Source of the DNA: a virus
Taxonomy: Duplodnaviria > Heunggongvirae > Uroviricota > Caudoviricetes
Reading direction: 5' to 3' (one strand)
IMG/VR virus record: IMGVR_UViG_3300037312_000757
Length of the DNA: 64,000 nucleotides
Shown: one piece after another, positions 2,875 to 42,486 of the stretch
How the letters are laid out: every line of letters begins with the position of its first letter
Position numbering within the stretch: position 1 is the first letter of the stretch
Translations under genes and position numbers: made by a program
Notes under the pieces: model-generated
Told to the model about the DNA's origin: nothing
Databases searched by the model: none
The model's input: only the letters and a program-made list of their open reading frames with translations

Positions 2875-3789
2875 TCAATAGTCGAGGTTTTGGATTTCAG
2901 CTGCGAGTGCTGAATTGACAGAATCAGGCCAATGCATGTTCAGCTCAACGAAAAGGTCCCCACGGACCTTCGTGTTCATTACTGACATGCCGTGCCCTGG
3001 GATACGAATGCGCGTGCCTGGCTTTGTTCCAGGACGAATGGTGATGTCGAATTCGGTGTCATCGATCGTACCAATTCGAACTTGCGATCCGCCGAGAAGA
3101 TCCAGCACGTGAATGTCTTTCTTCAGAACCAAGTTCTGAGCTTCACGTATGAATTCTTTGTGTTCGGTGACTGTAATGTGAACGTAAAGGTCGCCAGCAG
3201 GACGGCGAGTGTTTCGACGTGAACCAGCTGCCGCACAGCGAATCTTCTTACCAGTGTCGATACCAGCAGGAATGTTCAACAACACTGAGCGACGTTCACC
3301 GTCGATGGTGTAGGTGACAGTGGTCTGTTTACCCTTGAACGCTTCTTCTAGGGTGATTTGCATGTCGAAGTATGCGTGCTCGTTTGCTCGTTCGTATTCG
3401 TAATCATAGTAGCTTTGCCTACCTTGATTCGTCTTACGCATCCATTCATCTGCATCATAGGACCAGTTGGCGTTTCGGTCAGCTTCCTTGAAGTCTTTGA
3501 AGATGTCGTCCCAGTTATAGCGCCGTCCCGTCGAGTATTGGGAGTCGTTGTCATTGAACTTAGTGCTGTACTTGGAACGACGCTTACGGTCATAGACCGC
3601 GCGCTTTTCTGTCGTTTCGACAGTCTCGAACGCTTCTTTCACACGTTTGAAATTCTTCTCAGCTTCCTCGATGTTATCGGGGTTCCGATCCGGGTGCCAT
3701 TTCATGGCAAGCTTGCGATACGCCTTCTTGATCTCGTCGTCGTTCGCAGTCTCGGCTACTCCTAGAATTTCATACGCACTTTCGTTCAT
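2875..3789 (-). CDS. dnaJ: DnaJ-class co-chaperone (J domain + DnaJ C-terminal domain, no zinc finger; CbpA-like)
   Basis: YEILGV...IKKAYRKLAMKWHPDRNP J domain; ITLEEAF, IPAG, GDLYV and GDLFV C-terminal motifs. Confidence 0.92.
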   Translation of the reverse strand: MNESAYEILGVAETANDDEIKKAYRKLAMKWHPDRNPDNIEEAEKNFKRVKEAFETVETTEKRAVYDRKRRSKYSTKFNDNDSQYSTGRRYNWDDIFKDFKEADRNANWSYDADEWMRKTNQGRQSYYDYEYERANEHAYFDMQITLEEAFKGKQTTVTYTIDGERRSVLLNIPAGIDTGKKIRCAAAGSRRNTRRPAGDLYVHITVTEHKEFIREAQNLVLKKDIHVLDLLGGSQVRIGTIDDTEFDITIRPGTKPGTRIRIPGHGMSVMNTKVRGDLFVELNMHWPDSVNSALAAEIQNLDY

Positions 3790-4190
3790 TTGGCTTTTTT
3801 GTCAGTAGTCGCTGGGGTTGCCACCGCTTGCGGGGTGCCACTTTGTTGCGACTTTAACACATCTGCCAAATAATCAATAGTCTTCTTTTGTTCGAGAATG
3901 TATCGACGAAGTTCCTGCACGTTTGAGATCATGATCTCCATATTGGAACGATCAAGTACGTAGAACTGGGCCGTAGGGTTGGCCTGAAGTTGTGACTGGA
4001 AAGTACCAAATGTTTGCGCAGTAACCAACTGATACTTCATGTTTTGCAAGTTAGTTGGTGTAGGAACAGGGATTGAAACTGGTGGACGATCAGCAATCGT
4101 AGTCACTGCGACTGGTTGCTGTGTTGCACAACCAGCCATAACGGCAACTGCGCCAATTACTGCCAGCCATTTACTGACGTGACGCATCAT
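3786..4190 (-). CDS. o-spanin (Rz1-like outer-membrane lipoprotein)
   Basis: Lipobox VMAGC, Pro-rich linker, overlaps the upstream TM/coiled-coil gene. Confidence 0.75.
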   Translation of the reverse strand: MMRHVSKWLAVIGAVAVMAGCATQQPVAVTTIADRPPVSIPVPTPTNLQNMKYQLVTAQTFGTFQSQLQANPTAQFYVLDRSNMEIMISNVQELRRYILEQKKTIDYLADVLKSQQSGTPQAVATPATTDKKAK

Positions 4191-4614
4191 TTACATCCTG
4201 AAAAAGTTGATTGATGTTTGTATTGATCTGGCTTTCTGCCTCAGTTGGCTTTGACTTAACCAGATTCTGATACTGTTGACTGTTGAAAGTAGTCGAAACC
4301 TTGTTGGAATTCATACGGATTTCAGCAATCTGCTTGTTATAGCTGTCAGTCAAGATCTTCAGGTTAGCCAGATCACTCTTCATCAAAGCCTGAGCCGCAT
4401 TGGCTTGGTTGATGGCGATCTGTTGTGCTTCAATCTGCTTTGTCAGAGTGTCAATCTTGTTCTGCTCATAGCTGAGGTACCATCGAACGCCGAAGAATCC
4501 AGCAACAATGGCTCCCAGGAAAAACAGCGTCAGGTATAGCTTGGCACTGGTGAAGATAGCTCCGATCGGGGTTGCCTTTGCAGCAACTTCTACGGCTTCT
4601 GTAGTTACGCTCAT
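4171..4614 (-). CDS. i-spanin (Rz-like inner-membrane protein)
   Basis: Single N-terminal TM followed by coiled coil; overlaps the lipoprotein gene. Start MSVTTE follows a GGAG RBS. Confidence 0.75.
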   Translation of the reverse strand: MSVTTEAVEVAAKATPIGAIFTSAKLYLTLFFLGAIVAGFFGVRWYLSYEQNKIDTLTKQIEAQQIAINQANAAQALMKSDLANLKILTDSYNKQIAEIRMNSNKVSTTFNSQQYQNLVKSKPTEAESQINTNINQLFQDVNDASRQ

Positions 4615-4632
4615 AATTTGCTCCAAAAATAT

Positions 4633-30720: not shown

Positions 30721-32322
30721 TTATTGAATATTCAGGCCGATCACGAAGACCATGTAAGTTGAAGTTGTGACGTCATACTTCACACCCAACATGTCAACGC
30801 CTGCTGATGTGAGAGTTGGAGCAGTACCTGCAGCAAACTTTGTGGAAGCTGGCCATGTGATTGCGGCTGAACCACCGTTTGTCACACGCAGATAAACCAC
30901 TTCGCCACGGTTAGCGGCCAATGTGTTTGTGAATGCGAATGTTGTCGCACCAGTAATTGTCATTGTCCACTCTGTAGCTGCTGACAGATCAAGTGTTTGA
31001 GTGCCTGAAACGTTACCCAAAGCTGAAACCGTGTAGCTGTATGAATCACTCTGTGTACGACCAGTTATTACTGGTGATGATGCTGATGCTCGAGAAGTAT
31101 CAGTTGGGTGAACGTGATCCGCACGAGCAAATGTCGTACCGGTACCAACTGCTGCCGTACCAGCTTGCAATGGTGTGGTTGATGATGCTTGACCCAACAC
31201 GAATGCAGTTGTTGCCAACTGTGTGGTATTGGTATTGACTGCTGCGGTTGGTGCGGTGGGTGTCCCAGTCAGAGCAGCTGAAGCCGGATTTACTGGTGTG
31301 TAAGTCAACGCTGTGGTTACGTCTGAACTTTGCAGTGTGACGGCACCAGTACGCGTATTGAATGACGAAACACCTGAGGCATTCACAGCACTTGTTACGA
31401 ATGCTGTAGTCGCAATCTGCGTTGTATTCGTGCCTGCCGTTGCTGTGGGCGCTGTTGGCGTACCTGTTAGAGCGGCTGAGGCTGGGTTTACTGGTGTGTA
31501 TGTCAAAGCTGTGGTGATGTCTGAGCTTTGAAGTACGATTGCACCAGTACGACCGAATACTGATGTGACTGGGGCGGAACCAGCACCAGCAATATTACGC
31601 CAAGCTGTGCCATCGAAGAATACGTAATCGCCGACGTTGAATGTTGTGATGCCATCCAAATAACTTGTGAACGAGAACGGACCACCAGTAATTACACTGA
31701 CTGTTCGATCAACTGTAATACCCACGCCAGGGTTAATATTTATGATGATACCCAAGAATGTACTTGAGCTGCTGTCTGTAACACCCATACCAAGTGAAAG
31801 ACCGGTTGTGCTATTCAATTGATATGAATTGAACGAACCGCTAATACCATGTGGAATACCGATCGACAATGATGCGCCAGCTGTTGAAACCTTGTACAGT
31901 TTACCAGCTGTGCCGGCACTAGACATCAACTGTGGTGTGTTCGTAGTCGCATTCCATGTACCAGTATAGTTCAGCATGCCTGAGTCATTTGACAGCTGAC
32001 TTACTTTTGTAGGAACGGCTGAAGAGGTAATAAAACCACTATCATTTGTAAGTTGGCTAACGGCTGTTGGAACTGAAACTGTAGCCCATGACAGGTTACC
32101 GCTTGCATCGGTCTTCAAATACTGACCGTTTGAGCCCAGTGATGTTGGCCAAAGAGCGCCGTTCAGAGCGATTGCTGTTGATGACAGCTTGAATGGTGAA
32201 GAATTGCCAGCACCATCAACGACACTGCGCAATGTTGAGTCAAGTCCTGCACCAGTATTATCAAGCTTCAACAATTCCTGGTAAGAATCTTTTGGAGCAC
32301 GATTAAAAAGTGATGAAGCCAT
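30721..32322 (-). CDS. Tail fibre with conserved N-terminal adapter domain (copy 4 of 4)
   Basis: MASSLFNRAPKDSYQELLKLDNTGAGLDSTLRSVVDGAG; VSQLxNDSG x2, PTAPT shaft x2, FARADHVHP, C-terminal ITWP...APTLT tip. Confidence 0.85.
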   Translation of the reverse strand: MASSLFNRAPKDSYQELLKLDNTGAGLDSTLRSVVDGAGNSSPFKLSSTAIALNGALWPTSLGSNGQYLKTDASGNLSWATVSVPTAVSQLTNDSGFITSSAVPTKVSQLSNDSGMLNYTGTWNATTNTPQLMSSAGTAGKLYKVSTAGASLSIGIPHGISGSFNSYQLNSTTGLSLGMGVTDSSSSTFLGIIININPGVGITVDRTVSVITGGPFSFTSYLDGITTFNVGDYVFFDGTAWRNIAGAGSAPVTSVFGRTGAIVLQSSDITTALTYTPVNPASAALTGTPTAPTATAGTNTTQIATTAFVTSAVNASGVSSFNTRTGAVTLQSSDVTTALTYTPVNPASAALTGTPTAPTAAVNTNTTQLATTAFVLGQASSTTPLQAGTAAVGTGTTFARADHVHPTDTSRASASSPVITGRTQSDSYSYTVSALGNVSGTQTLDLSAATEWTMTITGATTFAFTNTLAANRGEVVYLRVTNGGSAAITWPASTKFAAGTAPTLTSAGVDMLGVKYDVTTSTYMVFVIGLNIQ

Positions 32323-33139: not shown

Positions 33140-33457
33140 ATGCCAATTTGTCTTTACCTTCCTGCGTTCGTTATTTCCTTCTATTCGATTCTGGCTTTTG
33201 CAACTGGTATCGACGGCTTCTCGACTCCACTCGAAACGTATTCACCTAAGAATATTGTCGAGCACCTCAAGTTCAGTCATCTGCTGATAGCGTTTGTGCT
33301 CAGCGCATTACCCTACTTGAATGTAGTGTTTGCTTTGATGGGGAGCGTCATCCTAGTTGCTGGTGCAGTCGTCGAAGCGTCCTTCTGGTTGTTCTCAACA
33401 AAGTTCATGTCACGCAAGGTCTTTCAGCCCAAGCGCAAGACCAGCAGGGGCGAATAA
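33140..33457 (+). CDS. Small membrane protein (LPYLN motif family)
   Basis: 105 aa, hydrophobic segments, downstream of promoter. Confidence 0.7.
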   Translation: MPICLYLPAFVISFYSILAFATGIDGFSTPLETYSPKNIVEHLKFSHLLIAFVLSALPYLNVVFALMGSVILVAGAVVEASFWLFSTKFMSRKVFQPKRKTSRGE

Positions 33458-40023: not shown

Positions 40024-40785
40024 ATGATTTTCAAATTACTCGGAAAACTAGTCGATCGCTTTGAATGCAAACGCCCGCCATATGCTACTGGTGTGGAATG
40101 GGAAGAGTGGCAAAAAACTACAAAGAAGCAACAACCAATTCGTTACTTCCTGTTTGACACCATTCCGACCTTGTGCCGACGTTTGAACATTCGTCGCTTA
40201 CAACCGGTGAAGTATTGGTTCATTCATAGAACAACCAATCGTATGCATGTAGTAAAGCCAAAAACGTTGAAACCGGGCTATACCCATCGTGAAGATCGCA
40301 TGCTTCATACGTGCTTTCACGAGCTAACTACTTATGTTGAAGGTTCATTGGCTGCTCGTAACTTTTCATATTGGGAAGAAGGTCGTCCTGAAGGCAGGTC
40401 GGATCTGCGTTGGAAGTTTAGTTCAAAACGTAGACGGTCTACGCTTGCCAATCGCATTGAAGCTGGTGTACAGTATTTGGATTGGGAGATCAATGAGCCG
40501 ATGTGTGCTGGTTATCAAGCACAAGCCGCTAAAGAATTCAAGGATCTGTATTTGTGGTGGACTGTTCAACGTCCTCAACGTTTGGACGCGTGGAACGATG
40601 AGAAGCTAACCAGTCTCGAATCACCAGAAGATCGTACCCAACATGAAGGCCGGTTGTTCTCTAGTAACATACCGGCCTCTACGCGTTTGTATTGGGACTG
40701 CGCGACAGAACTGAATCAGTTTTATGAAGATCAAGATCAGAAAATGCTTGAAGCTCTGATCAAGGTTAGGCAGCGCCTGGATTAA
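40024..40785 (+). CDS. Hypothetical phage protein
   Basis: 253 aa ORF, Trp-rich, LYLWWT..RP.R motif. Confidence 0.75.
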   Translation: MIFKLLGKLVDRFECKRPPYATGVEWEEWQKTTKKQQPIRYFLFDTIPTLCRRLNIRRLQPVKYWFIHRTTNRMHVVKPKTLKPGYTHREDRMLHTCFHELTTYVEGSLAARNFSYWEEGRPEGRSDLRWKFSSKRRRSTLANRIEAGVQYLDWEINEPMCAGYQAQAAKEFKDLYLWWTVQRPQRLDAWNDEKLTSLESPEDRTQHEGRLFSSNIPASTRLYWDCATELNQFYEDQDQKMLEALIKVRQRLD

Positions 40786-42088
40786 GCAATTCAGACAAGA
40801 TAGCTGTCAAGTCACGACCCAAGGACTGGAATTCCACGAAATTGCCATTCTCATCAAAGATGGCATGCACAATCCAGTCTTGAATCTCTGTTACACCGTT
40901 CATCATCTCGAAGTGCAATTGGAAACGACCAGTTGGGCGGTGTGCATCCAAATTCATCAGCATGTCATGGTAACTTTGACGGTCTGATGCCGGGATACTT
41001 TCCAAAAAGTTCTTGCCAATCACCTCTTGCTCCGATACACCAAAGTGATCCAAGTAGGCTTTATTCACTCGCTTAATGATACCAAGCTTGTCATAGCTTG
41101 CAAACATGTCAACGCTGTTGTTCACGAAAGCATTATTGACACGTGTGGCGTGCCCCAGATCGTTTTCAAGCTTGCGAATCTCTGTGATGTCTTTCAGCGT
41201 GATGAGACTTGCATTGCTTGTTTCCCACTTGATTAGTGTGCTTGAAACCAGCAGCTCAACCGCTTCACCATTAGCTTTGATGCCTGTTACGACATAGTTC
41301 TTAGGAGAGCTATCACCGTTCATGCGAGCGGTGTGGTGGTCGTTCAGTGTCTTGATACTTTGCTTGTGGAAGAAGCCTGTTAGTGGCTTTGCGATGAAGC
41401 TCTCACTTGGATAACCAAGTACGCGAGTGATTGCTGGATTAGCGGCTACAATATGATAGTTCTGCACCACAATGATACCGTCGAAGCTTTGTTCAAATAC
41501 TGAACGGTAACGACTTTCGTTCAACTTCAGTTCACGTTGCATTTCCATAGTAGTGCTAACATCTCGAACCAAAAGCATTGAAATGTTAGAACCGTCCATG
41601 CGTTGCATATGAGTAATTGAACCGTCGATCCAGAACAGATCACCGGTCTTGCGCTTTCCACGCAAAGTCTCAAATGGCGTGTTCATCAACGCATCTGGGT
41701 GATACGCCGAGAACATGTCAAGGATTTCACGTGGTGAAATCGATGGCTCACCAATTTTACGGAACAGCAGATCGATTGAATGGCCTACAACGTCAGTTGA
41801 CTTCCATCCAAAAATCAACTCTGCCGCTGGGTTGAATGACTCAATCTTGCCGCTGTCTGAACAGACGATCAGTGCGTCTGCTAGAAGCTTGGATGTTGTC
41901 TCAATTTGACGCAAGCTGTCATCCAAGCGTTCCTTCAAACGGAAAGTCACGTCGTGTGCGGCATCGGCAGTTGACGTAGCTGCTTCAAGTAGAAGCGCTT
42001 GACTGTCATGAATCTTCGCCATTTGTTCAAGCTCACGATCCTGCTTGGCTTGTTTCTTCTTACGATTCCACATGGTAAAAATCCTCAC
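40766..42088 (-). CDS. Stand-alone triple PAS-domain protein without output domain
   Basis: PAS motifs FNPAAELIFGW...RKTG...VRDVS, ANPAITRVLGY...KANG...KDITE and VNKAYLDHFG...GRDLT; N-terminal coiled coil. Confidence 0.85.
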   Translation of the reverse strand: MRIFTMWNRKKKQAKQDRELEQMAKIHDSQALLLEAATSTADAAHDVTFRLKERLDDSLRQIETTSKLLADALIVCSDSGKIESFNPAAELIFGWKSTDVVGHSIDLLFRKIGEPSISPREILDMFSAYHPDALMNTPFETLRGKRKTGDLFWIDGSITHMQRMDGSNISMLLVRDVSTTMEMQRELKLNESRYRSVFEQSFDGIIVVQNYHIVAANPAITRVLGYPSESFIAKPLTGFFHKQSIKTLNDHHTARMNGDSSPKNYVVTGIKANGEAVELLVSSTLIKWETSNASLITLKDITEIRKLENDLGHATRVNNAFVNNSVDMFASYDKLGIIKRVNKAYLDHFGVSEQEVIGKNFLESIPASDRQSYHDMLMNLDAHRPTGRFQLHFEMMNGVTEIQDWIVHAIFDENGNFVEFQSLGRDLTAILSELLNPGAA

Positions 42089-42342
42089 AGCTTGCCTTTG
42101 ATCTCAAACAGAACGAACTTCAAGCTGTTCAACGCTTCACTTAGCGTTACGTTACCCTTAGTGTAGTCCTCAATGATTTTGTCGATCTTATCATCTTTCT
42201 TTTCGATCTCTTCAAGCAAACGCTTGCGTTCGTACCACAGGAACAAGATGATTATGATGAGAACTGCGATAATAGCAGCTGGTCCGCCTCCCAGAAGTAC
42301 GCCGAAAAGTTTTTCAAATAGTGTGTCCATATTGCCGCCCAT
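42085..42342 (-). CDS. Single-TM coiled-coil protein (holin-like architecture)
   Basis: GGPAAIIAVLIIIILFLWY then charged coiled coil; TAAATA at 42361-42366; stop overlaps the PAS gene start. Confidence 0.7.
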   Translation of the reverse strand: MGGNMDTLFEKLFGVLLGGGPAAIIAVLIIIILFLWYERKRLLEEIEKKDDKIDKIIEDYTKGNVTLSEALNSLKFVLFEIKGKL

Positions 42343-42486
42343 CGCGAAAGGGGTTTATCGTATTTATGGGTCCCACTCGCTCACTTAAATCGCCTGTTTA
42401 ACTTACATAATGTAACACTCCAGATTCTTTAGCCAAAAGAAAAACGGCTAGGTTGCCCTAGCCGTTTAAACGAATCTTGTGTGCGT

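What the first reader, a model, noticed from the sequence alone, without database searches (positions are those of the whole stretch)
40766..42366. Late two-gene module: holin-like membrane protein coupled to a kinase-less triple-PAS sensor
Seen: TAAATA promoter, then an 85-aa single-TM coiled-coil gene whose stop overlaps a 440-aa gene made of a coiled coil and three PAS domains, with no kinase, GGDEF or HTH. Known: PAS domains sense oxygen, redox or ligands and usually feed an output domain. Inference: the PAS protein may act through the membrane partner, for example tuning lysis timing to host state, or may titrate host sensor kinases. No other holin candidate sits with the spanins.
Basis: inference. 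Interest (0 to 1): 0.7.

Follow-up and report, generated by a model that had tools for sequence, protein, structure and literature searches.

The report
Huge-phage membrane-tethered PAS sensor pair
A late-expressed gene pair, a tiny membrane protein plus a sensor-type protein with three PAS domains and no output domain, is kept together across a clade of very large soil phages including two cultured ones; it looks like a split membrane-anchored sensor, and there is no direct evidence that the small protein is a holin.

Summary
On the minus strand a terminator hairpin and a CATAAATA late-type promoter precede a small single-TM gene (42085..42342) and a PAS gene (40766..42073, 435 aa: helix 2-65, three PAS domains, no output domain).

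The pair is strongly co-conserved. A PAS gene follows the small gene in 20 of 22 informative related loci (240-607 kb phage contigs). In Agrobacterium phage Atu_ph07 (gp48/gp49) and Sinorhizobium phage Phosso only the pair is shared; the flanks differ.

The slowest-evolving parts are the small protein's cytoplasmic helical hairpin (67-79% mean pairwise identity) and the PAS protein's N-terminal helix (61%, against about 40% for the PAS domains). I infer that these two parts dock and form a membrane-tethered sensor.

The holin reading is not supported:
- no holin family matches;
- no lysis gene is adjacent in any locus;
- the TM segment is the variable part;
- published proteomics found Atu_ph07 gp48, but not gp49, in virion preparations;
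- the window holds more classical holin candidates.

What the pair senses and what it controls are unknown. Control of lysis timing is my best guess, held weakly. Closest analogues: NifL/PpsR-type PAS proteins, small membrane connectors of sensor kinases, and VqmA-Phage. I rate it a new variant of a known kind, testable in Atu_ph07 and Phosso.

The parts
42442..42467 (-). Intrinsic-terminator-like hairpin (11 pairs) followed by a T-run. It ends the upstream 101-aa gene and isolates the module.
   Evidence: sequence
42361..42368 (-). Late-type promoter motif CATAAATA (T4 late-promoter-like)
   Evidence: 8 hits, all on the minus strand, 2.05 expected, 0 of 100 shuffles reach 8. The motif is conserved upstream of the small gene in related loci.
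42085..42342 (-). Small bitopic membrane protein gene: 85 aa from ATG 42342, probably 81 aa from ATG 42330. Homologue of Atu_ph07 gp48.
42232..42285 (-). TM segment (aa ~20-37) preceded by a conserved GGP motif. It is variable across the family (46% mean pairwise identity).
42088..42231 (-). Predicted cytoplasmic helical hairpin (aa 38-85), the most conserved part of the module (67-79% mean pairwise identity). The positive-inside rule places it in the cytoplasm: 5.4 K+R after the TM segment against 0.8 before it.
42082..42086 (-). GAGGA Shine-Dalgarno sequence of the PAS gene, overlapping the stop codon of the small gene
   Evidence: read directly
40766..42073 (-). Output-less triple-PAS protein gene (435 aa, P0001). 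The alternative GTG start at 42088 gives the 440-aa reading.
41879..42070 (-). N-terminal region: an aromatic residue plus a poly-basic start (MWNRKKK), then a long helix (aa 2-65). One face is conserved with 3-4 spacing and is rich in Ala and Thr. Residues 20-65 show 61% mean pairwise identity, against about 40% for the PAS domains.
41561..41875 (-). PAS domain 1 (aa 67-171). Its closest solved relatives by sequence are the heme-PAS domains of FixL and DosP, but the proximal histidine is not aligned.
41189..41479 (-). PAS domain 2 (aa 199-295)
40811..41107 (-). PAS domain 3 (aa 323-421). It is absent from the ~300-aa subfamily, so it is dispensable for the core module.
40024..40785 (+). Context only: a convergent 253-aa gene of unknown function that overlaps the 3' end of the PAS gene by 20 nt. 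It holds the same position in 5 related loci.

Best explanation
The two genes encode a split, membrane-tethered PAS sensor made late in infection.

The small protein inserts with its N-terminus out and its C-terminus in. Its ~48-residue cytoplasmic helix-turn-helix tail sits at the inner face of the membrane. The PAS protein starts with an aromatic residue and a basic cluster that should lie at the membrane interface. Its long, highly conserved N-terminal helix docks on the tail, probably as a helical bundle in a 2:2 complex.

The 1-4 PAS domains read a cytoplasmic cue that is still unknown; no FixL/DosP-type heme histidine and no LOV cysteine motif is present. There is no enzymatic or DNA-binding output, so the signal must pass by protein contact, through the conserved helix and tail, to something at the membrane.

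My committed guess for that output is control of a late membrane event, most probably the timing of lysis, by acting on the lysis machinery rather than by being the hole-former itself.

Shown: the gene pair, its domain content, the late-type promoter motif, co-conservation, and the conservation pattern. Inferred: topology, physical docking, signal path. Speculative: the lysis-timing output.
For: Co-conservation:
- A PAS gene lies directly downstream, on the same strand, in 14 of 16 IMG/VR loci. One of the other two is cut by the contig end. The other keeps only the first 41 codons before an inserted endonuclease-like ORF.
- The pair is also present in the new informative metagenome loci L023, L025, L029 and L030; L024 is the one exception.
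- It is present in Phosso and in Atu_ph07 (gp48/gp49), where no flanking gene is shared.

No fusions and no output domain:
- A profile search of 1.84 billion representative proteins finds 164 clusters. The 150 listed are nearly all ~80-105 aa, and none is a fusion to a PAS protein.
- All five PAS partners tested by Pfam (window, Atu_ph07, Phosso, P0017, P0045) have PAS domains only.

Conservation pattern:
- Mean pairwise identity of the small protein: tail helices 67% and 79%, TM 46%.
- Mean pairwise identity of the PAS protein: N-helix 61%, PAS domains 39-41%.
- Per locus, the tail stays 58-75% identical to the window while the PAS domains fall to 17-51%.
- Tail divergence tracks N-helix divergence (r 0.70; partial r 0.40 after controlling for the PAS domains). 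This is weak evidence because the pairs are not independent.

Topology and membrane interface:
- 0.8 K+R before the TM segment against 5.4 after it.
- A W/F plus basic cluster stands at the PAS N-terminus in nearly all members.

Late expression: the promoter motif is shared with spanin and structural genes and is conserved in relatives.

Fold: Foldseek places the PAS protein with multi-PAS proteins, some of which signal by protein contact (PpsR, NifL).
Against: - No interaction has been tested; co-folding was not available here.
- No cofactor or ligand determinant could be identified. The F-alpha region of PAS1 is variable across the family.
- Nothing links the pair to lysis genes by position. 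The spanins lie 37 kb away in the window, and rIIA/rIIB lie within 8 kb in only 4 of the 16 IMG/VR loci besides the window.
- Atu_ph07 gp48 was found in virion preparations with 3 peptides and 37% coverage, while gp49 was not. A stable stoichiometric complex does not predict this.
- L024 has the small gene without a PAS gene within 860 nt.
Confidence: 0.4

Rival explanations
1. Holin and sensory antiholin. The small protein is itself the hole-former. The PAS protein binds its cytoplasmic tail and holds or releases it according to host state, much as T4 RIII acts on holin T.
For: - The small protein is a late-promoter-driven, single-TM protein with a helical cytoplasmic tail.
- No T-type holin is detectable in five relatives, and the Atu_ph07 authors could not find its holin (PMC6102473).
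- A language-model search placed a cluster in which 64% of members carry Holin_BhlA at rank 13, score 0.90.
- An abundant late membrane protein could contaminate PEG-purified virions, which would explain the detection of gp48.
Against: - No holin HMM in Pfam, PHROGs or NCBIfam matches any of 29 members.
- PF10960 finds nothing in Atu_ph07 or Phosso at E <= 10.
- The pair is never adjacent to an endolysin or spanin.
- The TM segment is fully hydrophobic and poorly conserved, while the tail is nearly invariant on all faces. Holins usually show the reverse.
- No dual-start motif is conserved.
- More classical candidates exist in the window.
Confidence: 0.17
2. The small protein is a genuine virion or assembly component, for example a hydrophobic protein ejected into the host membrane at infection or a membrane anchor for particle assembly. 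The PAS protein is a non-structural partner that handles it before assembly.
For: - Atu_ph07 gp48 (9.11 kDa, exactly the mass of the homologue P0174) was detected with 3 unique peptides and 37% coverage. gp49 was not detected. Most neighbours (gp40-44, 46, 47, 50, 53 and onwards) are virion-associated.
- In the environmental clade the pair follows two genes that match PHROG 'virion structural protein' families, in conserved order.
- The pair is expressed from the same late promoter type as structural genes.
Against: - The virions were only PEG-purified, and the same table lists clear non-structural proteins: ribonucleotide reductase, a RecA-like protein, SSB and terminase.
- The synteny with structural genes is lost in Atu_ph07 and Phosso, while the pairing with the PAS gene is kept.
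- A multi-PAS protein is an odd chaperone.
Confidence: 0.15
3. Mimic or decoy of host sensor kinases. The membrane-tethered PAS array, with a hairpin shaped like a kinase dimerisation domain, heterodimerises with host PAS histidine kinases and blocks or hijacks their signalling.
For: - The nearest cellular relatives of the PAS domains are PAS sensor kinases such as FixL and CckA-like proteins, at ~25-30% identity.
- The small-protein model aligns best with DHp hairpins of PhoR, SrrB and EnvZ, at Z 6.7-7.6.
- The pair has the architecture of a sensor kinase without its catalytic parts.
Against: - Z below 8 is what any helical hairpin gives (note).
- The tail and the N-helix carry no conserved histidine.
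- Both are conserved across phages whose other proteins are highly diverged and whose hosts are mostly unknown, which points to a phage-internal partner rather than a host-specific target.
- Host-takeover functions are usually early, not late.
Confidence: 0.12
4. The two genes are merely co-transcribed neighbours with independent functions.
For: - The intergenic gap varies from a 4-nt overlap to 845 nt, with an inserted gene in L007.
- L024 lacks the PAS gene.
- gp48 but not gp49 was seen in virion preparations.
Against: Adjacency survives complete turnover of the flanks and PAS-domain identities as low as 17-20%. Both proteins concentrate their conservation in helices that have no intrinsic catalytic role.
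Confidence: 0.05

Closest known systems
Output-less or contact-signalling multi-PAS proteins (NifL PAS1-PAS2, PpsR N-PAS1-PAS2)
   Same: Tandem PAS domains joined by helical linkers, with signalling by protein-protein contact. They are among the top structural matches.
   Different: NifL and PpsR carry further domains (a kinase-like domain or an HTH) and have soluble partners. Here there is no other domain, and the dedicated partner is a tiny membrane protein encoded by a phage.
Heme-PAS oxygen sensors FixL and DosP (EcDOS)
   Same: They are the best sequence matches of PAS1 in the PDB (E about 1e-6), with a tandem PAS arrangement.
   Different: The proximal heme histidine (DosP His77) aligns with a serine, and the F-alpha region is not conserved in the family. 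There is no kinase or phosphodiesterase output.
Small membrane-protein connectors of sensor kinases (MgrB, SafA, MzrA; recalled from the literature, not tested here)
   Same: Very small bitopic proteins that work only by binding a sensor protein at the membrane.
   Different: Those act on the periplasmic side of complete kinases. Here the conserved part is cytoplasmic, the partner has no kinase, and there is no sequence relation.
VqmA-Phage of vibriophage VP882
   Same: A phage-encoded PAS sensor that informs a lysis decision (PMC8284805, seen).
   Different: VqmA-Phage is a single PAS domain fused to a DNA-binding domain in a temperate phage. It is soluble and has no membrane partner.
Single-TM holin-like peptides with a C-terminal coiled coil (BhlA/UviB, PF10960) and T4 holin T with its regulators RI and RIII
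   Same: A small N-terminal TM segment plus a helical tail, late expression, and the concept of a cytoplasmic regulator bound to a holin tail.
   Different: There is no HMM match and no adjacent lysis gene, and the conservation pattern is the inverse: variable TM, invariant tail.
Atu_ph07 gp48/gp49 and the Phosso homologues
   Same: True homologues of both genes, in the same order with overlapping stop and start.
   Different: gp49 has an extra inserted region (536 aa) and is mis-annotated as a histidine kinase. Neither gene has been studied functionally.

Membership tests
PAS domain superfamily (Pfam clan PAS_Fold) | Significant match to PAS HMMs above the gathering score | tested here: met
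   PAS_9 at 104.9 bits (cut-off 27), PAS at 80.8, PAS_4 at 63.3; three domains.
PAS domain superfamily (Pfam clan PAS_Fold) | Five-stranded antiparallel sheet with flanking helices | tested here: met
   The AF2 model shows three such units with block-mean pLDDT mostly 85-97. Foldseek E = 1e-17 to 1e-12 to DosP, PpsR, FixL and NifL.
Sensor histidine kinase (the annotation of Atu_ph07 gp49) | HisKA/DHp domain with a phospho-acceptor His, plus an HATPase_c catalytic domain | tested here: not met
   Neither the window protein, Atu_ph07 gp49, the Phosso protein nor two other family members has HisKA or HATPase_c. The His in the N-helix is not conserved.
Heme-binding PAS (FixL/DosP type) | Proximal histidine on the F-alpha helix | tested here: not met
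   DosP His77 aligns with Ser in the phmmer alignment, and the region is variable in the family. This rests on alignment only; spectra are needed.
LOV-type flavin PAS | NCRFLQ-type motif with the adduct-forming cysteine | tested here: not met
   The motif is absent from all three PAS domains (sequence; alignment).
Holin_BhlA / UviB (PF10960) | Match to the family HMM | tested here: not met
   No match in any of 29 family members at E <= 1. No match in the Atu_ph07 or Phosso genomes at E <= 10. The only support is a language-model lead, score 0.90 at rank 13.
T4-type holin T (PF11031) | Match to the family HMM, with one TM segment and a large periplasmic domain | tested here: not met
   No match over the cut-off in five related genomes. 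The protein has 85 aa and no periplasmic domain.
Holins in general (functional class) | Small membrane protein with at least one TM segment, expressed late | tested here: met
   One TM segment and a late-type promoter motif. Expression itself was not measured.
Holins in general (functional class) | Genetic linkage to an endolysin or spanins | tested here: not met
   No lysis gene lies next to the pair in the window or in the 16 IMG/VR and 2 cultured-phage loci examined for synteny. The window's spanins lie at 3786..4626.
Holins in general (functional class) | Forms lethal membrane lesions that release endolysin at a programmed time | not testable with these tools
   Needs expression and complementation assays.
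FtsL/DivIC-type division proteins (JGI name on one homologue) | Match to the FtsL or DivIC HMMs, with N-in/C-out topology and a periplasmic coiled coil | tested here: not met
   No such Pfam or NCBIfam match in 29 members. The charge distribution predicts the opposite topology.
Atu_ph07 gp48/gp49-like module (the family defined here) | An ~81-aa protein with GGP-TM and the tail motif KKDDKIDKII-DYYKGN-TLSEALNSLK, followed by a PAS protein with the N-helix motif SQ-ALL-AATSTADAA-DVT | tested here: met
   Alignments A1, A2 and A3 and adjacency.

The most novel reading that the evidence does not exclude
Huge T4-related phages carry a dedicated sensory switch for the end of infection. A membrane-tethered PAS array reads the host's energy, redox or oxygen state and, through its small partner, advances or delays membrane permeabilisation. 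That would be a sensory holin-antiholin system unrelated to T/RI/RIII.
Probability: 0.2. Interest if true: 0.8.

Novelty: new variant of a known kind. Interest (0 to 1): 0.55.

Why it matters
Phage-encoded sensors that inform infection decisions are few. The known examples, such as VqmA-Phage and arbitrium, are soluble transcription regulators of temperate phages. This pair would be a different design: a sensor with no enzymatic or DNA-binding output, tied to the membrane by its own small partner, made late, and conserved in a clade of 240-607 kb soil and rhizosphere phages.

The lysis mechanism of this clade is unknown, as the Atu_ph07 authors state, so the pair is a reasonable place to look. 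Two cultured members, Atu_ph07 and Phosso, make the question experimentally accessible.

If the small protein turns out to be a genuine virion component instead, that would also be informative about how these very large particles are built or how they inject.

Tried and rejected
Searches that found nothing or added little:
- Megablast of the region against 50,697 phage records: no match.
- Single-sequence scans of IMG/VR with either protein: nothing. Only the alignment-based scan worked.
- tblastn of the small protein against phages: only Phosso.
- No whole genome is held for the window.
- Sequencing runs: two rhizosphere DNA holders, one of them the likely source. No RNA holder is listed, so there is no evidence on expression either way.
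- Literature: no paper found that discusses PAS proteins of jumbo phages or Phosso.

Structure and language-model searches:
- Foldseek of the small-protein model against the PDB and BFVD: nothing at E <= 0.001.
- VIA-align wide: DHp hairpins on top, but Z 6.7-7.6 is the level of any helical hairpin.
- ESM Atlas on the PAS N-helix: only unnamed clusters, plus an ArcB-TM lead at 0.82.
- Holin_BhlA lead: rejected by the HMM.
- T-type holin: absent in relatives.

Weak family hits judged to be noise or unsupported:
- The FtsL label on one JGI homologue has no HMM support, and the predicted topology is the opposite.
- Sub-threshold CcmD hits are recurrent (16 of 29 and 12 of 29 members) but cover only the TM and juxtamembrane stretch. 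XLF_CC hits are coiled-coil noise.
- Heme binding by PAS1 is suggested by the best PDB matches, but the proximal His is not aligned.

Other checks:
- Natural fusions of the small protein to PAS proteins: none among the 150 listed of 164 clusters.
- The 76-aa 2-TM candidate holin has no detectable homologue in five relatives. Its SleB-like neighbour does in two, but the flanks there were not informative.
Full report
**What is there**

The finding lies on the minus strand. Read 5' to 3' on that strand, the elements are:
- A terminator-like hairpin at 42467-42442, with 11 pairs followed by a T-run. It ends the upstream 101-aa gene.
- The octamer CATAAATA at 42368-42361.
- A small ORF at 42342..42085.
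- A large ORF ending at 40766.

CATAAATA occurs 8 times in the 64-kb window, always on the minus strand, against 2.05 expected; 0 of 100 shuffles reach 8. Seven of the eight copies sit just upstream of gene starts, including the i-spanin, structural genes and PhoH; the eighth, at 31737-31744, lies inside an ORF. The motif is one base away from the T4 late-promoter consensus TATAAATA (my own knowledge). A (C/A)TAAATA motif precedes the small gene in most related loci, including the two cultured phages. Several of those copies lie in the loop of a terminator hairpin. The pair is therefore an autonomous, late-type transcription unit.

**The two proteins**

The small protein:
- It is 85 aa from the first ATG. 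Most homologues are 81-82 aa and begin at the second Met.
- It has a short acidic N-terminus, a conserved GGP, one fully hydrophobic segment and a basic juxtamembrane stretch (ERKRLL).
- Its ~48-residue tail is modelled by AF2 as a continuation of the TM helix, a KGN turn and a return helix (helices 21-61 and 67-84; mean pLDDT 82).
- Across the family there are 0.8 K+R before the TM segment and 5.4 in the 15 residues after it. The positive-inside rule therefore puts the tail in the cytoplasm.

The large protein:
- It is best read from ATG 42073 (435 aa, identical to database protein P0001).
- A GAGGA Shine-Dalgarno sequence overlaps the stop codon of the small gene.
- The 440-aa GTG reading that overlaps the stop has no support from homologues.
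- Pfam finds three PAS domains and nothing else.
- AF2 (mean pLDDT 86) gives a helix at 2-65 and PAS folds at 67-171, 199-295 and 323-421, joined by helical linkers.

**Where it comes from**

The window has no near relative among 50,697 phage records, and no host genome is held. Its own proteins occur on a 523,837-bp contig, and the DNA is held by rhizosphere metagenomes.

Neighbouring genes are rIIA, rIIB, PhoH, PHROG 'virion structural' proteins, Rz-like spanins, a DnaJ and tail-fibre proteins. This is a huge T4-related phage of the Atu_ph07 kind.

**Co-conservation**

- Both proteins have homologues on the same large contigs.
- An alignment-based scan of IMG/VR with the small protein returned 16 loci from contigs of up to 607 kb.
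- In 14 of these a PAS homologue lies immediately downstream on the same strand.
- Of the other two, L011 is cut by the contig end. L015 keeps only the first 41 codons of the PAS gene before an endonuclease-like ORF takes over.
- The metagenome scan returned nine loci. Three repeat IMG/VR contigs and one (L027) is cut 81 nt after the small gene. Of the five new informative loci, four have the pair and one (L024) has no PAS gene in the 860 nt that remain.
- In Sinorhizobium phage Phosso and in Agrobacterium phage Atu_ph07 (gp48/gp49) the two genes are present with overlapping stop and start. None of the window's flanking genes is found next to them.
- In the environmental clade the pair follows two 'virion structural protein' genes in conserved order.
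- The number of PAS domains ranges from one (L025, 187 aa) to about four (Atu_ph07, 536 aa). The N-terminal helix is always kept.
- A profile search of 1.84 billion representative proteins finds 164 clusters of the small protein. The 150 listed are nearly all 80-105 aa, with no fusion to PAS or to anything else.

**Where selection acts**

Mean pairwise identity by region:

| Protein | Region | Identity |
|---|---|---|
| Small protein | N-terminus | 32% |
| Small protein | TM segment | 46% |
| Small protein | First tail helix | 67% |
| Small protein | Turn and last helix | 79% |
| PAS protein | First 19 residues | 25% |
| PAS protein | Helix 20-65 | 61% |
| PAS protein | PAS domains and linkers | 37-41% |

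- The conserved positions of the N-helix follow a 3-4 spacing over ten turns, with Ala and Thr at the centre. That is the signature of tight helix packing.
- The first residues nearly always carry Trp or Phe and a Lys/Arg cluster, which fits a membrane-interface position.
- Across 16 paired sequences, tail divergence correlates best with N-helix divergence: r 0.70, against 0.63 and 0.55 for PAS1 and PAS2, with a partial r of 0.40. I treat this as weak support, because the pairs share ancestry.
- From this I infer that tail and N-helix form one helical assembly at the inner face of the membrane. This step is inference. Co-folding was not available.

**What it is not**

- It is not a kinase. The window protein, Atu_ph07 gp49 and three other family members tested all lack HisKA and HATPase_c, and the Atu_ph07 annotation 'histidine kinase' is wrong.
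- It is not a FixL/DosP-type heme sensor on present evidence. Those are the best PDB sequence matches of PAS1, but DosP His77 aligns with a serine, and the region varies in the family.
- No LOV motif is present.
- The small protein matches no holin family in Pfam, PHROGs or NCBIfam.
- A language-model lead to Holin_BhlA (score 0.90, rank 13) failed the HMM test on Atu_ph07 and Phosso.
- The FtsL label on one homologue has no HMM support and the wrong topology.
- Structural searches with the small model give only generic helical hairpins. The top rows are kinase DHp hairpins at Z 6.7-7.6, below the level that carries meaning.

**Evidence that bears on function**

- The Atu_ph07 paper (PMC6102473) states that the lysis mechanism is unknown and that no holin was identified. 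No T-type holin is detectable in five relatives.
- Against it, no lysis gene is adjacent to the pair anywhere, and the TM segment is the least constrained part.
- The window offers more classical candidates: a 76-aa 2-TM protein directly upstream of a TM-anchored SleB-like hydrolase at 53070..54032, and a 105-aa 3-TM protein at 33140..33457.
- Supplementary Table S5 of the same paper lists gp48 (9.11 kDa) among proteins found by ESI-MS/MS in virion preparations, with 3 unique peptides and 37% coverage. gp49 is absent from the list.
- The gp numbering maps onto the GenBank CDS order through gene lengths, and the calculated mass of the homologue is 9.11 kDa.
- The virions were only PEG-purified, and the list also holds ribonucleotide reductase, a RecA-like protein, SSB and terminase. 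Contamination by an abundant late membrane protein is therefore plausible, but a true virion role cannot be dismissed.

**Best reading and rivals**

- My best reading (0.4) is a split, membrane-tethered PAS sensor whose signal leaves through the conserved helix-tail assembly. The output is a late membrane event, most probably lysis timing.
- Rival: the small protein is itself the holin and the PAS protein its sensory antiholin (0.17).
- Rival: the small protein is a virion or assembly component (0.15).
- Rival: the pair mimics pieces of host sensor kinases (0.12).
- Rival: the genes are functionally unrelated neighbours (0.05).
- The remainder is something not considered.

**Comparison and novelty**

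The module works like contact-signalling PAS proteins (NifL, PpsR), and the small protein like the small membrane connectors of sensor kinases. It is a member of none of these families. It is a member of the PAS superfamily and of a phage-specific family that includes Atu_ph07 gp48/gp49.

The only well-studied phage PAS sensor I found, VqmA-Phage (PMC8284805), is a soluble PAS-HTH regulator. No paper found here discusses this pair.

I rate it a new variant of a known kind, of moderate interest. Its value lies in being conserved, unexplained, and directly testable in two cultured phages.

Noticed in passing
L015:1174-2154: The ORF after the small gene keeps only the first 41 residues of the PAS protein (the same as the N-terminus of P0012). 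It then continues as an HNH/homing-endonuclease-like sequence, and a terminase gene follows. This is either a mobile-element insertion into the PAS gene or a chimeric contig.
   Followed up: partly
window 53070-54032 (-): A 76-aa protein with two TM segments (PHROG 18969 'membrane protein') sits directly upstream of a 217-aa protein with an N-terminal TM segment and a SleB-like Hydrolase_2 domain. This is a classical pinholin/SAR-endolysin-like arrangement. The hydrolase has homologues in two complete relatives; the small protein has none.
   Followed up: partly
window 33140-33457 (+): A 105-aa ORF with three predicted TM segments and no family match. It has the topology of a class I holin.
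   Followed up: no
L003, L004, L005, L014, about 40-75 nt upstream of the small gene's tblastn match start: The late-promoter motif CTAAATA lies in the loop of a G+C-rich hairpin; in L014 the hairpin is followed by a T-run.
   Followed up: partly
L025:2697-3260: Here the PAS partner is only 187 aa: the N-helix plus one PAS domain. Across the family the number of PAS domains ranges from 1 to about 4, while the N-helix is constant.
   Followed up: partly
L024:2736-3884: The only informative locus in which the small gene is not followed by a PAS gene. The 860 nt downstream have no long plus-strand ORF. The contig is short (3.9 kb).
   Followed up: no
L018:5004-6614 (Atu_ph07 gp49): [quoted passage not shown]
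   Followed up: yes
window 40024-40785 (+): A 253-aa gene with no family match that converges on the PAS gene and overlaps it by 20 nt. It holds the same position in 5 related loci (L003, L004, L005, L008, L014).
   Followed up: partly
window 42085-42342 (-), aa 25-49: Recurrent sub-threshold similarity of the TM and juxtamembrane part to the heme exporter protein CcmD (16 of 29 members in Pfam, 12 of 29 in NCBIfam). It is probably compositional and remains unexplained.
   Followed up: partly
window 2875-4626 (-): A full-length DnaJ (J domain plus DnaJ_C) is encoded directly downstream of the i-spanin/o-spanin pair. No endolysin or holin lies beside the spanins.
   Followed up: no
window 54029-55354 (-): An M16 (insulinase-type) peptidase homologue is encoded just upstream of the 2-TM/hydrolase pair.
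   Followed up: no
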